DNA of 64,000 nt. Origin: Octopus sinensis (taxonomy: Eukaryota). Position numbers and translations under genes: made by a program. The stretch spans positions 33,728,001 through 33,792,000 of the forward strand of contig NC_043014.1 of assembly GCF_006345805.1 (NCBI RefSeq), read 5' to 3'. Of the stretch, positions 1,290 to 59,975 are shown piece after piece (position 1 is the first letter of the stretch; the number at the start of each line of letters is the position of its first letter). The notes beneath the pieces are model-generated. The model was not told the origin of the DNA. It made no database searches and saw nothing but the letters and a program-made list of their open reading frames with translations.

Positions 1290-2128
1290 ACACACACGCA
1301 CGCACGCACGCACGCATACTCACACATACCAAATTCTCATCGACTAACCAAACTACAATTTTAACATATACACCACCAGGAACACCACTAATGCCACCAC
1401 CAGCAGCAACAACAACAACAACAACAACAACAACGGCAACGACCACAACATCATTATGAAGAGCCAACGGAAAGTCCTCTATGTAGGCCGTTTGTCCTGC
1501 TAGAAATAGCAACCAAATTTCTCTAGGCTTACACCTAACTGTTCTTGACCAACAAAAAGCCAATGTAGAAGCCAACGAAGAAACCTCAAGTGAATCTCGT
1601 GATATGTGAGAAATAGCAGCCAAAATATTCTGAAATCATACCTTATCTTCTTTGAAAAAAAAAAGGAAGAAAAGTTTGCATAATGCAGTACAGTATACAA
1701 AATGCTGTGGTGGCCATAGATGGACTGCTTTGTTCATAGCCCAACTCGATAGGTTTCTCCCGTAGCTAAACAATACTAACAACAAATGGAACACTTCCTC
1801 ATCGATATCATCGCAAAGCAGGCAACTGAGTCGGAACTTCGAAGTCACAGCCTACCTTTTCCTATAAAAATGTGATGTAATTAATGTTTGATAGTTTTTC
1901 AAACATATTATAACTATACATAAAATCATGTTAATTTGTTTTAGCTCTTTACTTGTTTCAGTCATTAGAGTGCGGCCATGCTGGGGCACTGATTTGAAGA
2001 ATTTTAGTCTAATGAATCGATCCCAGTTCTTTTATTTTCTTTCTTTCTTAAGCCTAATACTTATTCTATAAACTTCTTTTGCCGAGTCGCTAAGTTACGA
2101 GAACATTTATATTTATATGTATATTATA

Positions 2129-2159
<31 letters not shown>

Positions 2160-2332
2160 ACGTAAGGGGTATCAGCCATCTGAATGTGGCTAGGGACAGG
2201 GCGGGGTGGTGGGGTGTTACTGATGCTTTTAGCCCCAGGCGATCATCAACGTCACCAGAAGGACTGACACCATATTGGTGTCCTTGTTTGCCTGTAAAGG
2301 GAGGTTATCCTCCCTCGAAGATACTGATGCTA

Positions 2333-2375
2333 CATACGGACCGGTTTCGAGGTCATTGCCTCTTATCAACGCATG
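2333..2375 (-). ncRNA. Minimal type I hammerhead ribozyme (U3-A8 core variant), copy 1
   Basis: Minus strand reads CAUGCG-UUGAUAA-GAGG-caauga-CCUC-GAAA-CCGGUC-CGUAUG: 6-bp stem I, 4-bp stem II, palindromic ACCGGU stem III, GUC cleavage triplet (predicted cut between 2339 and 2338). Confidence 0.85.
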
Positions 2376-2692
2376 GTAAGCACCGTTCCTCGATGAAGGA
2401 TTCCCTCTACAGGCAACATATATAAGGTTTTTCACAGTAACTACTGTCACTGATGTAGAAAAACTGTCTGAAAACAATAATAAATCTCTGAACGAGATAT
2501 AAACAGTAACTGCTCGACAACGTAAGGGGGATCAGCCATCTGAATGTGGCTAGGGACAGGGCGGGGTGGTGGGGTAGTACTGATGCTTTTAGCCCCAGGC
2601 GATCATCAACGTCACCAGAAGGACTGACACCATATCGGTGTCCTTGTTTGCCTGTAAAGGGAGGTTATCCTCCCTCGAAGATACGGATGCTA

Positions 2693-2735
2693 CATACGGA
2701 CCGGTTTCGAGGTCATTGCCTCTTATCAACGCATG
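2693..2735 (-). ncRNA. Minimal type I hammerhead ribozyme (U3-A8 core variant), copy 2
   Basis: Identical to copy 1, 360 bp away; predicted cut between 2699 and 2698. Confidence 0.85.
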
Positions 2736-3023
2736 GTAAGCACCGTTCCTCGATGAAGGATTCCCTCTACAGGCAACATATATAAGGTTTTTCACAGTAA
2801 CTACTGTCACTGATCACATTCAGATGGCTGATCCCCCTTACGTTGTCGAGCAGTTACTGTTTATATCTCGTTCAGAGATTTATTATTGTTTTTATATATA
2901 TATATATATATATAATATATATAATATATATATATATACATGTGTTTGTGTGCATACGTGTGTGTGTACATATATACACATACATACATATACAAGATGC
3001 ATCCAGCCATCATCCAGCTAGCC

Positions 3024-4496: not shown

Positions 4497-4755
4497 ATAG
4501 GGCTATAAACTACAGTAGCATCGTCCCATATGGCTCAGCCACATTTAAGTGGCAAATATACTTCACTTAATTCATAGTATTTTCCCATTATGCGCCAGTT
4601 TGACTGGGTAACATAGCAAGCAAGCAAGTAAGATACAATGTTACCCACTCAAACTGGCGCATAATGGGAAAATACTATGAATTAAGTGAAGTATATTTGT
4701 CACCTAAATATCGCTGACCCATGTGGGACGATGCTACTGTAGTTTATAGCCCTAT
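4497..4755. repeat. Long inverted repeat (118-bp arms, 23-bp spacer) abutting (TA)n
   Basis: 4497-4614 is the near-perfect reverse complement of 4638-4755. Confidence 0.9.
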
Positions 4756-6049
4756 CTCCTCCAGCTGGCTAAAGACACACGCTCAGAGATTTATAATTAC
4801 TATGAATTAAGTTTACCCTGAAATGTCAATACGAACGGAATGATACATGTTTTGCAAAAATCAGAGCAGTAGTTATTGAGATATTCGGGGTTTGGGTGTA
4901 TAAACACCCAAAACGGTGCATAATGGGAAAATGTTCCGAATATAACTTCATCCTGAAAGGGGAGAAATTCTAACCTTTTGATTAGACAGTAATTTGAGAA
5001 CGGAAATATAAGATTTTTTTTTTTTTACAATAAATATTTCTATTTTTGACTTTGTTAAACACAATCATTTAGAAATATTTTTATGTGAATATGATTTCAA
5101 AAATGTAAGTTGTTTGTACAGTAAGTATTTATATTTTAACTTTCTTTAATCAGAATATTTTAATGTTTTTAAAAATTATTTTCAATAATTTAAAAAAAAT
5201 ATTTTCCATAACAAAAAAATTGAGGGGCATATTTTAAAAATATTTCGAAGTAAAAGTGACTTTAAAAATACAGTAAATATTTCGTAAAAAACCTGTTCGT
5301 AACCTCATATATGTATGTAGTATGTATGTATGTATGTATGTATGTATGTATGTATGTATGTATGTATGCATGCATGCATACATGTATGTATGTAGTATGT
5401 ATGTATGTATGTATGTATGTATGTATGTATGCATGCATGCATGCATGTATGTATGTATGTATGTATGTATGTATGTATGTATGTATGTATGTATGTATAG
5501 TTCATAGATGAGATCCAGATATTTTCCGCAGAGAAGCCATTTAGTAGCGCTCAAAGGATTCTGACTTAGACTTCGATGTCTTTACAGGGGATCATTCCAC
5601 AAAGTAAAGAAAGGCTATAAGAGGGATCGAGTTGAGCGGGTATAGAGGCAATTATGCGGATAAACAAATTAGATACACGAAATACATTAAACATGTTACA
5701 TATATTAATTTGGGTACGAAATGCAAAATATGTCTATATGTATACATGCAAAACGAGGTAAAGCAAAAGGCGAAAACTTTCAGGTGATGAATTTTTAAGT
5801 ATGAATATACTGATATTTATATTAATAGGTCCAACTTACAAACGACAGAGAAAATTAAAAGGGTGAGAGAAAGGTGTTATAAGTTCAACAGCTGTTCCTG
5901 GGGCTCGGCGATCCATAATAATGTTGGTAGATTTAGTTCATCACAATATGCGACTTTATGGGTGCAATTAATATTGGTTTGGACAAGCCTCCGTCATCTT
6001 CCCTACCCAGACGACGGAGACTCGTTCTATCCAATGTTAATTGCATTGT

Positions 6050-40267: not shown

Positions 40268-41950
40268 GACAACTTTAGGCCCATAACTCTGCTAAATGCA
40301 GAGTTCAAAATGTTGGCCAAGGTGTTAGCTACGAGGTTGGCTCTTGTCGTCGGAGATCTGGTAGGGGAGGCATGGGCACGTGCCATCCCGAAAACAACCA
40401 TCTACGATAACCTCCTCCTCGTGAGAAAGTGGCTAAAGAACCTGGCACGGGTGGGGCCATGATCAATTTAGATCAGTTTAAAGCTTTCGATAGGGTCGAC
40501 CATCTATACTTGGCAGCGGTCCTCAAGGCAGCTGGTTTCGGGTCTGTATTCAGGGACTGGATCGCTGCAATGCACAGCGACATCTCTTCAGTAGTCAGAG
40601 TGAACGGTCACTTCTCAGAGCCGTTCAACTTCATGCGCTCGGTCCGGCAAAGTTGTCCCCTCTCGTCTCTCTTGTACGTACTGACTCTCGAGCCACCACT
40701 ACACAAACTGGAGGCGTTGAGAGGTATCCCGCGTGACTTAAGATGTGTGAGATGCGTGTCGACGTATGCCGACGATGTCACCGAAGTGGTGTCGGATTAT
40801 AAACACATAGAAATGATTGACACAGCTCTCAGGGACTACAGGCGGTTCTAGGAGCGACAATTAACCAGGAAATATCAGTGGGCTTGCGGCTCGGCACCTG
40901 GAGAAGCAAGTCCATGCCGTCCAACTGCGTCGTTGGGCATAGGACAGACGGACCATTTATATTGCTCGGGGTCTGGTTCAGTCCGGACCTCTAGATGGAC
41001 AAAAACTGGGACGAGGTAACGTGCAGGGTGACTACTCTCACCCAGAAATGGGCCGAGAGAAATCAATCCCCGAAATGTCGGACAGAGGTGGCCAACGCTT
41101 ATATCACGTCCGTCATCTAGTATCACATGACCTTGTCCTGGCCATCGTTTGATTATGCTGGAGCGTATACTCTTTAGCTTCTTGTGGAAGGGACGCATCC
41201 CGATGGTCAGGCGGTCTATCTGCTATCAGTACCCGCTGCGTGGTGGCTTGGGCATGCCGTGGTGGATGATGCGCAGACATAAGCTGAGGCTAGGACGTCT
41301 CTAGTGCTTCCTTGAGGGTGAACAGGTGTGGTTGCCGTTCGCCAGACACGTATTTCCGCAGCTAGTTTCTTCAACGGAGCTGGATAAAACAGAGATCAAG
41401 GGTGAGCATTTGGAAAGTGGAATGTCTTCATGTGCTCACAGCCCTCAGCCAATCGGACAGTGCGATAGGTGGTACGTCCACTTTAGCTTTTTATAGAGGA
41501 TTAGGGGAGGAAAAGTGTGACAACGTACTTGGGGAGATCTTGGGTGCCGAAGAAAATCAGCTAGTCGCTCTTTTCCGGTGTACTTTCGGGCCGGGACCGA
41601 TATGGATAATTTCCAAAAATCTCTGGCTTGGCTACCGAGTGCTTTGCTTGTTCGAGATAAACTTTACAAGCACGGAAGTGCCGTCAGCTCGGCATGTCCG
41701 AGTACATGCAAGACGAGACGGTCCTGCATGCACTTGTCCACTGTCTGAGCATTGCTGACCGGTGGATTTATGTCGAACACTAGCTGTCACGTGTGGGACG
41801 GATCTGGCAGTCAACTGAATCTATTGTGAAGATCGCCACGTTGCCTTCTTTTAACCAAGAAGGAAAGGTTGTTTTTATATTATGGTGGCCGTGGCGAAAG
41901 AGCTTGTATGGTGGACGAGATTGAAGGGGATGAAGAATTTTCGTTTTGTC
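40268..41950 (+). pseudogene. 5'-truncated L1/Tx1-clade LINE ORF2 (reverse transcriptase) remnant
   Basis: NFRPITLLNAEFKMLAKVLATRL, LDQFKAFDRVDH, VRQSCPLS, YADDVT and FSFLWKG motifs, with stops and frameshifts. Confidence 0.9.
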
Positions 41951-46478: not shown

Positions 46479-47143
46479 ATGGACAGGAAGTTGGAACAAA
46501 GAACAAAATTGCGTTGAACTGGGAAGTCTGCTACAGAGACATTGAGTATGTTTCAGCAAAGCTTACGACGACGAGGCAATGGGTCGTCACGCAATGTTTC
46601 GAATGGCATAGAAGAACGTCCCTGGAAGAGGATGAGCGATCTGGAAGACCTTCCACGAACGACACTCCGGGAAATATGGAAAAAATTCATCAGCTTCTGC
46701 ATGAGGACCATCGGAGGGCAATCAACGACGTTTTGGAGCGTTTGGGTGAGGACGTTCAGCGAAAGTGACCGGATCTGTAGAGTCCGAAATGCACTCTGTC
46801 ACCGAGCTCTCCTCACTCGTGAGTTTCTCGCCGAAAACAACATAATATCGCTTCCTCACCCACCCTATTCACCAGATGTAGCGCCTGCGGACTTCCATCT
46901 CTTCCTCAAGATGAAAAAACAGCTCAAAGGTCGCGTTTTAACACAGTTGTCGAGATCCAGAGCGAATCGCAGAAGGCCCTCGACTCACTTACGGAAAACG
47001 ACTCCCAGGCCGCATTCCAAAAGTGGTAGAAATGCTGGATTCGGTGTACTGCAGCACAAAGTGAATATTTCGAAGGTAAAACTTAGCTAAGTTATTTTTT
47101 ATTAAACATAACTAGTCCGGGAACATTTTGGTACCACCTCGTA
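46479..47143 (+). pseudogene. Internally deleted mariner transposase with 3' TIR
   Basis: MDRKLEQR, GKSATETL, QCFEWH, DERSGRPS, PHPPYSPDVAPADFHLF and EYFEG motifs; ends ...ttttggtaccacctcg-TA. Confidence 0.9.
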
Positions 47144-58991: not shown

Positions 58992-59218
58992 AAGAATAAC
59001 TTGGAACTTATGAAATTTTGGCCCAAGGGCAGCAATTTCTGGGGAGGAATTAAATCGATTATAACGATTCCAAGTGTTCAACTGGTACTTATTCATCCAA
59101 AAGGATGAAAAACAAAGTCGACCCAGGAAATGCCGCTAAGCCTTTTGCCCGGCGTGCCAACGATTCTGCCAGCTCGCCGCCTTCAAGGAAACCATTATAT
59201 TCATTATTGTTTGTTGTT

Positions 59219-59264
59219 AACACAACGTTTCGGTTGAAATACCCTCCAGCCTTCATCAGGTGTC
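59219..59264 (-). ncRNA. Minimal type I hammerhead ribozyme with canonical core
   Basis: Minus strand: GACAC-CUGAUGA-a-GGCUG-gaggguauuu-CAACC-GAAA-CG-UU-GUGUU. 5-bp stem I, 4/5-bp stem II, palindromic AACGUU stem III. Confidence 0.8.
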
Positions 59265-59975
59265 TTGGTTGGGGGTATATCAGTCGAAATGTTGTGTTAA
59301 CAACAAACAAGATAAGAACTAATATCCGTCAAATGTAAATAGTGTAAATAATGTACATAATTCCTCATCTCTTAAATATAGAACTAAAGTATTATATTAT
59401 TCAGAACGTATGAATCAAGGAATAGCTAAAAGTTTGAAAATAAAAATGCACGTTTGGGACAAATTTATGAAAAGCTTCGGACAGACAAAAGAGTAATATT
59501 ATAGGTGTAGTCCGTTACTGCTCTTTTTAACCACTATCCAGTCTGTTTACCGTAGGTTCTGGTATTGGCCAGAATATATCTGTATGCAAAAATTATCAAC
59601 ACCATCATCAATGCCGTCGCCAAAATTAGTTTTAGTCATTAATTAACCCAAAGTCATCCCTGATCAAGCATGCCTAGATTTAAGTGTTCTAGGAAGGACT
59701 CTCTCGGCTTTTTTTTTTTTTACCCAGGCATAGCATATCTAAGATTGTATTATCGAACACCTTCACATTTTAGACAATAGGGTGTGATTTAGCTGCAATT
59801 TCTAGCAAGTTTAAATAGACACGTATAGCACTTTAGTTTTTAGGTAGGTACTTCGGTAAAATTGATATATTTTACGAAATGTTGAAGTTTTCGTCAAAAT
59901 AATCACAAAACAAAGATCTAACAAGGGCTCTCATGTATTTCAAAGTTTTCTTCTGCAGTTATACCGACCTCTAGC

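What the first reader, a model, noticed from the sequence alone, without database searches (positions are those of the whole stretch)
2333..2375. Hammerhead core carries the compensatory U3-A8 pair instead of C3-G8
Seen: the core reads UUGAUAA rather than CUGAUGA in both copies, a double change at exactly positions 3 and 8, while G5, A6, A9, GAAA and GUC are intact. Established: residues 3 and 8 form a Watson-Crick tertiary pair in the active hammerhead, and U3-A8 is an uncommon functional natural variant. Inference: covariation argues for selection on catalysis, and CUGANGA-based motif searches would miss this family.
Basis: partly seen in the sequence, partly recalled or inferred. Interest (0 to 1): 0.8.

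Follow-up and report, generated by a model that had tools for sequence, protein, structure and literature searches.

The report
Jumping ribozyme tries four core pairings
This is a hammerhead ribozyme motif, predicted to cut itself as a pair, inside a small repeated element; its U-A core pair is a known variant, but the element's relatives in this genome also multiplied with wobble and mismatched versions of that pair, which likely records the pair changing one letter at a time.

Summary
Observation confirmed (minus strand, 2333-2375 and 2693-2735). The motif is a type I hammerhead with a palindromic helix III, in a 360-bp non-coding unit inserted in (TA)n as partial tandem + inverted copy + tail: a non-LTR retrozyme with Penelope-type anatomy. 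The tandem transcript's unconstrained best fold is the double hammerhead. U3-A8 is fixed in the subfamily, not local decay, and Rfam misses it, but it is already published for Penelope hammerheads (PMC4209133). The tree (3/7/8 masked) gives U-A > U.G > U-A (window) > C.A > C-G, with matching age order. Selection on the ribozyme fold is supported by other features: covarying stems, a helix III that stays self-complementary through many sequences, GUC kept. Cleavage, circular RNA and the autonomous partner are not shown. New variant of a known kind; interest 0.5.

The parts
2161..2520 (-). Full 360-bp retrozyme-type unit (copy 1)
   Evidence: dispersed relatives 66-96% identical
2521..2814 (-). 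5'-truncated tandem unit (copy 2), 98% identical to copy 1
2815..2892 (+). Inverted truncated copy: 3' end of the unit plus a 50-nt tail (2843-2892) absent at the other end of the insertion
   Evidence: (I1)
2333..2375 (-). Type I hammerhead, copy 1: U3 at 2369, A8 at 2364, predicted cut after C17 (2339)
2693..2735 (-). Type I hammerhead, copy 2: U3 at 2729, A8 at 2724, predicted cut after C17 (2699)
2340..2345 (-). Palindromic helix III (ACCGGU); no monomer hairpin, 6-bp self-duplex of -8.3 kcal/mol; twin at 2700-2705
2300..2420 (-). Extended stem I rod around the hammerhead, with compensatory changes across subfamilies
   Evidence: (z -4.4)
2339..2698 (-). Predicted 360-nt monomer released between the two cut sites; circular fold -114.9 kcal/mol, z -4.3, 0 of 60 shuffles as low
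   Evidence: prediction only
2108..2159 (.). (TA)n target microsatellite, left
2893..2938 (.). (TA)n target microsatellite, right

Best explanation
The motif is a type I hammerhead in a 360-bp non-coding repeat that likely moves as a Penelope-dependent retrozyme and is predicted to cut only as a dimer, and its U3-A8 pair is one of four pyrimidine-purine states that the family has amplified, likely because slower wobble and mismatch cores still cut well enough. Shown: the anatomy, the counts of the four states, their clustering into dispersed subfamilies, the covarying stems and self-complementary helix III. Inferred: a tandem transcript folds into a double hammerhead, cuts after the two C17, and releases a 360-nt monomer that may circularise; a Penelope-like RT/GIY-YIG protein supplied in trans copies it into (TA)n. 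Inferred from the tree and age order: U-A > U.G > U-A (this window) > C.A > C-G, one letter per step, with a second U-A > U.G branch and two C.A > C-G repairs. So selection likely acts on the dimer fold and the rest of the core, and only loosely on Watson-Crick pairing at 3-8.
For: Unconstrained minimum-energy fold of window 2290-2790 equals the forced double hammerhead (-187.2 against -171.6 kcal/mol for two single hammerheads). Counts with helix III left free: U3.G8 418, C3-R8 866, Y3-A8 619 (5 of the first 100 listed are C3.A8), reversed-pattern controls 0. 20 of 21 fetched U3.G8 insertions belong to two coherent groups. C3.A8 clade supported 100/98 (92/93). One clade for all C3-G8 rows is rejected, p-AU 0.0004. 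Polarised changes: position 8 A>G four times and G>A once on internal branches, position 3 U>C once. Divergence between copies inside one insertion falls along the ladder: 0.035, 0.028, 0.017, 0.012, 0.011. Structure count on 25 chosen copies: 96% of cells paired, 12 of 26 pairs with changes on both sides, slid controls 33-50%. Helix III variants ACCGGU, ACUAGU, ACUAUAGU, ACUCGAGU, ACUGCAGU, ACCGCGGU are palindromes, ACUGCGGU and ACCUGGGU self-pair through G.U (four duplexes computed). GUC kept in 28 of 31 and 47 of 49 printed motifs where the pattern did not ask for it (counted by eye). (TA)4 within 30 nt of an end in 92 of 110 loci against 13% background; inverted part in 62 of 110.
Against: No cleavage, expression or circle was shown: no listed holder is on record as RNA and only contigs could be laid. 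No autonomous Penelope element with a related terminal repeat was found (0 of 21 PLE-like loci, apart from one neighbouring insertion). Invariance of U4-A6, A9, G12-C15.2 is partly built into my search patterns. Tree rows were sampled by 3/8 state, which inflates change counts at these columns, and the root rests on one 66%-identical family. HHR catalytic mutants did not affect insertion by a PLE protein in vitro (PMC11167929, passages), and 8 of 9 Xenopus dimers did not cleave (10.64898/2026.07.22.740005, part 3). From recall, not checked here: single C3U or G8A mutants lose orders of magnitude in rate in model hammerheads.
Confidence: 0.6

Rival explanations
1. Cleavage is dispensable or marginal: the double-hammerhead fold is kept as a structural signal (RT binding, RNA stability), and positions 3 and 8 drift by transitions.
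For: U.G and C.A states amplified; position 8 needs 9 changes on the tree, reached by 1.6% of 253 outside columns (inflated by sampling); HHR mutants did not alter PLE insertion in vitro (PMC11167929); many PLEs lack HHRs (10.1101/2021.04.23.441226, passages).
Against: Unpaired catalytic bases stay fixed where not forced: 1 of 411 core cells deviates in 32 BLAST-picked copies against 425 of 9326 outside (related copies, not independent); GUC kept; both C.A lineages that went on were repaired to C-G; position 3 changed once inside the clade.
Confidence: 0.18
2. U.G and C.A copies are catalytically weak passengers whose RNAs are cut in trans by Watson-Crick relatives that share the same helix III palindrome.
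For: The C.A subfamily shares ACCGGU and stem I with U-A and C-G subfamilies of similar age; positions 3 and 8 lie on the enzyme strand, the cut site on the partner strand.
Against: The U.G groups carry mostly private palindromes (ACUAUAGU, ACCUGGGU); only 3 of 40 further A8 loci fetched had ACUAUAGU; the U.G ladder spans many successive branches; the intramolecular tandem fold should outcompete trans pairing (inference).
Confidence: 0.12
3. One reading: U3-A8 arose as a compensatory double change from C3-G8 and only Watson-Crick states function; single-change copies are dead decay products.
For: Watson-Crick states are about three quarters of motifs; with the ACCGGU-anchored pattern alone the table looks covarying (92, 304, 25, 9); the step between the distant C-G family and the U-A base of the tree is unresolved.
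Against: 418 U3.G8 motifs in dispersed insertions with their own diagnostic helix III, and a C.A clade at 19 places, cannot be independent decay; tandem copies in one insertion share the state.
Confidence: 0.05
4. The units are truncated terminal repeats (pLTRs) left by an autonomous Penelope element, not a self-standing retrozyme lineage.
For: Insertion anatomy is that of PLEs; animal retrozymes are reported to derive from pLTRs (10.64898/2026.07.22.740005).
Against: Units abut head to tail with a 353-360 bp period and no ORF between them, up to 7 in a row; no PLE ORF continuous with a unit was seen in the first 114 loci scanned for ORFs.
Confidence: 0.05

Closest known systems
Animal non-LTR retrozymes, esp. 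the mussel Mytilus galloprovincialis retrozyme (PMC7229834, passages)
   Same: Non-coding 350-390 bp repeats, type I hammerhead per unit, tandem copies, structured monomer.
   Different: Here most insertions are dispersed partial tandems with inverted copy and tail in (TA)n; core pair 3-8 takes four states; circular RNA not shown here.
Hammerheads of Penelope-like element pLTRs (PMC4209133, parts 1-2 of 4 and supplement passages)
   Same: Palindromic minimal helix III, dimer requirement, U3-A8 variant already reported (about 1,300 hits in Schistosoma mansoni).
   Different: Helices I (6 bp) and II (4 bp) are of canonical size with no bulge after A9; no ORF; amplified U3.G8 and C3.A8 subfamilies are not mentioned in the parts read.
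Natural U3-A8 hammerhead core variants (PMC3088659, section 8)
   Same: Same covariant pair, stated there to be active in vitro.
   Different: Reported as scattered examples; no phylogenetic series with intermediates.
PLE insertion structure (10.1101/2021.04.23.441226; PMC11167929; passages)
   Same: Partial tandem, inverted 5'-truncated copy, one-sided tail, (TA)n or AT-rich target.
   Different: Tail is 50 nt here against 30-40 nt described; no RT/endonuclease in the element.

Membership tests
Type I hammerhead ribozyme | Three helices round the core, helix I open, core U4 G5 A6 A9 G12 A13 A14, A15.1-U16.1, H17 | tested here: met
Type I hammerhead ribozyme | Watson-Crick pair 3-8 | tested here: met
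   U3-A8 in the window copies; not met in the U.G and C.A sister subfamilies
Type I hammerhead ribozyme | Match to Rfam Hammerhead_1 | tested here: not met
   no match at gathering score or E<=10; a C3-G8 relative matches at E 3e-5, below gathering score
Type I hammerhead ribozyme | Self-cleavage after C17 | not testable with these tools
   no raw RNA reads offered
Dimeric (double) hammerhead | Short self-complementary helix III that pairs between two copies | tested here: met
   self-complementarity kept across variants
Non-LTR retrozyme | 150-450 bp non-coding unit with one type I HHR, in tandem copies | tested here: met
Non-LTR retrozyme | Expressed as circular RNA | not testable with these tools
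   only contigs of runs guessed to be RNA
Penelope-type insertion | Partial tandem, inverted truncated copy, one-sided tail, AT-microsatellite target | tested here: met
   window anatomy; 62 of 110 loci with inverted part, 92 of 110 at (TA)4
Autonomous Penelope-like element | RT + GIY-YIG ORF between the terminal repeats | tested here: not met
   no ORF between units
Non-autonomous derivative of a specific PLE | Autonomous PLE with homologous pLTR in the genome | tested here: inconclusive
   PLE-like ORFs are plentiful (150 matches) but the 21 loci checked show no homologous repeat; search not exhaustive

The most novel reading that the evidence does not exclude
One retrozyme lineage has walked the whole compensatory square of a ribozyme's catalytic tertiary pair (U-A > U.G > U-A > C.A > C-G), every intermediate cleaving and transposing on its own, with the steps preserved in dated genomic copies; natural U3.G8 and C3.A8 hammerheads are working ribozymes in the dimer context and are invisible to current descriptors.
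Probability: 0.4. Interest if true: 0.72.

Novelty: new variant of a known kind. Interest (0 to 1): 0.5.

Why it matters
The U3-A8 pair alone is known. What matters is the family: about 1,900 motifs whose subfamilies sample all four Y3/R8 states in an ordered, roughly dated series. It gives natural, near-isogenic RNAs to ask two open questions directly: whether hammerhead cleavage is needed for Penelope/retrozyme mobility, and whether compensatory changes in a catalytic RNA core pass through viable wobble and mismatch intermediates. It also shows that descriptors limited to CUGANGA or UUGANAA would miss about a quarter of this family.

Tried and rejected
Rfam: no match in the window. ACCGGU-anchored 2x2 table first suggested near-strict covariation; rejected as biased once helix III was freed; a few of its matches are unrelated motifs. 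First tree with a U-A outgroup was superseded. Autonomous partner: ORF scan of 114 loci, Pfam on 3 ORFs (no PLE family named; my reading of them as PLE-like is from recalled motifs), protein search of the genome and comparison of 21 loci found none. Expression: no RNA holder listed; contigs of 4 runs guessed to be RNA hold family-like pieces but show no strand, level or cut end. A-to-I editing as driver of A8>G8: only a weak A>G over U>C excess (internal 66 vs 51, p 0.08; terminal 50 vs 34, p 0.04), not taken further. Earlier scan findings: 3 look-ups, nothing. Papers not held and so not seen: Lunse et al. 2017 (PMC5785218), Przybilski and Hammann 2007 (PMC1986816), Nelson and Uhlenbeck 2008 (PMC2151028), Martick and Scott 2006 (PMC4447102); these may hold kinetics or natural examples of U3.G8 and C3.A8. 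One of three supplement files of PMC4209133 was not searchable; bioRxiv supplements were not seen.

Full report
Observation. On the minus strand, 2375-2333 and 2735-2693 read as a type I hammerhead: 6-bp stem I, UUGAUAA, 4-bp stem II with a 6-nt loop, GAAA, the palindrome ACCGGU, C17, stem I. The core pattern matches twice against 0 in 100 shuffles. The two copies are tandem units of one insertion (98% identical, spacing 360).

The element. The insertion is a full 360-bp unit (2161-2520), a 5'-truncated tandem unit (2521-2814) and an inverted piece with a 50-nt tail (2815-2892), between two (TA)n tracts. This is the anatomy described for Penelope-like elements (10.1101/2021.04.23.441226, passages; the tail reflects two RT start sites, PMC11167929, part 1 and passages). 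The genome is 2.72 Gb and microsatellite-rich; I take it for an octopus-like animal, which is inference and no tool result. Over 110 loci of six subfamily groups, 92 have (TA)4 within 30 nt of an end (background 13%) and 62 have an inverted part (some loci are segmental duplicates). Units abut without an ORF. This fits a non-LTR retrozyme like the 350-390-bp mussel element (PMC7229834, passages), a class proposed to derive from PLE terminal repeats (10.64898/2026.07.22.740005, parts 1 and 3 of 5). PLE-like ORFs are common in the genome but none of 21 loci checked carries a related repeat.

Fold. A single copy cannot form helix III. The unconstrained best fold of the tandem transcript 2290-2790 is exactly the double hammerhead, -187.2 kcal/mol, against -171.6 for two single hammerheads. 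Cutting after both C17 would release a 360-nt monomer whose circular fold is more stable than 60 of 60 shuffles (z -4.3); monomers of seven relatives in all four core states give z -2.2 to -6.3. On 25 chosen copies (24 distinct), 96% of cells pair and 12 of 26 pairs show changes on both sides, with slid controls at 33-50% (related sequences, so not a probability). Helix III changes sequence and length many times but the recurring variants stay self-complementary. GUC is kept in 28 of 31 and 47 of 49 printed motifs where the pattern left it free. In 32 copies picked by BLAST, 1 of 411 core cells deviates against 425 of 9326 outside the hammerhead.

Do 3 and 8 covary? In the window's subfamily U3-A8 is fixed (45 exact matches against 0 for CUGAUGA). 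A table anchored on ACCGGU gave C-G 92, U-A 304, C.A 25, U.G 9. Laying DNA contigs of four other organisms showed the family in three of them, with G8 at 50-60% of depth but C3 at 4-8%, and other helix III sequences, which exposed the bias. With helix III free the counts are U3.G8 418, C3-R8 866, Y3-A8 619, controls 0; since 5 of the first 100 A8 matches listed are C3.A8, this is about 835 C-G, 590 U-A, 418 U.G and 30 C.A (the first, second and last are estimates). Of 21 U.G insertions fetched, 15 share ACUAUAGU, 5 share ACCUGGGU and 1 is a decayed copy of the distant C-G family. Of the 25 C.A matches, 23 at 19 places form the C.A subfamily, 1 is a CpG-type decay in a C-G insertion and 1 is unrelated.

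Order of events. Trees were built with positions 3, 7, 8 (and helix III) masked. One search holds 90 rows: 72 of the 98 rows (26 near-copies dropped; those 98 came from 156 units of 250 nt or more) and 18 of 20 new units. Rooted on the 66%-identical C-G family, it reads: U-A (ACUGCAGU group) > U.G ladder > U-A (window) > a second U.G branch, and C.A > C-G twice. One clade for all C-G rows is rejected (p-AU 0.0004). Parsimony puts four A>G and one G>A at position 8 and one U>C at position 3 on internal branches, never both on one branch inside the clade. Differences between copies of one insertion fall in the same order, 0.035, 0.028, 0.017, 0.012, 0.011, and terminal branches likewise, which supports the direction. 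Caveats: rows were sampled by state; the root is one long branch; the step between the distant C-G family and the clade is not resolved; the C.A clade support drops from 100/98 to 92/93.

Mechanism, committed. Likely: transcription through a tandem, double-hammerhead folding, cuts after C17, a 360-nt monomer or circle, copying into (TA)n by a Penelope RT/endonuclease in trans. Selection keeps the dimer fold and most of the core, while 3-8 needs only pyrimidine-purine geometry, with Watson-Crick states regained after each excursion. The anatomy, counts and tree are shown; cleavage, circles and the helper are inferred. Against a need for cleavage: HHR mutants did not change PLE insertion in vitro (PMC11167929) and 8 of 9 Xenopus dimers did not cut.

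Novelty. U3-A8 is in print as a natural variant (PMC3088659 section 8) and specifically in PLE hammerheads, about 1,300 hits in Schistosoma (PMC4209133; supplement rows). Searches for U3-G8, C3-A8, U3G8, C3A8, UUGANGA, YUGANRA with hammerhead and for hammerhead or retrozyme with octopus listed no paper describing amplified wobble or mismatch cores or this family (listings only). Four key papers were not held, among them Lunse et al. 2017, so absence from print is not established. Interest 0.5.

Noticed in passing
window 4500-4797: Fold-back pair of 3'-end fragments of a distant relative of the same retrozyme family (70-79% to the C-G family), with no hammerhead; related ends are abundant in contigs of runs guessed to be RNA.
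   Followed up: partly
window 59215-59265, minus strand: A second hammerhead-like motif with canonical CUGAUGA, long stem II and palindromic AACGUU helix III, resembling a PLE minimal hammerhead; unrelated to the 360-bp unit.
   Followed up: partly
L118 2460-5183 (G000:C4:92068459-92071182): Frameshifted, near-full Penelope-like element (RT and GIY-YIG-like pieces, motifs recalled) with 3' repeat and inverted copy; its repeat keeps GAAACCGGUC but no intact hammerhead 5' core was found.
   Followed up: partly
L210-L212, L076, L093, L114, L202-L205: A further, older-looking hammerhead family with stem I UCCACA/UGUGGA, mostly U3-A8 and helix III ACUAGU or ACCGGU, not alignable to the unit by my BLAST settings and left out of the trees.
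   Followed up: partly
L170-L189: Large young C3-G8 family (most of 866 motifs), 353-bp unit, helix III ACUCGAGU, arrays of up to 7 units; the most canonical member and the best positive control for cleavage.
   Followed up: partly
L140-L164: Many U3.G8 copies also carry a G10.1.U11.1 wobble at the base of stem II, a second weakening change in the same amplified lineage.
   Followed up: no
window 40411-40848 (+) and 46518-47087 (+): Fragments that look like a LINE-type reverse transcriptase and a mariner-type transposase (recalled motifs).
   Followed up: no
whole family: Ladder-shaped tree with subfamilies 15-35% apart but copies only 1-3% old: the element's RNA lineage changed far faster than its genomic copies decayed.
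   Followed up: partly
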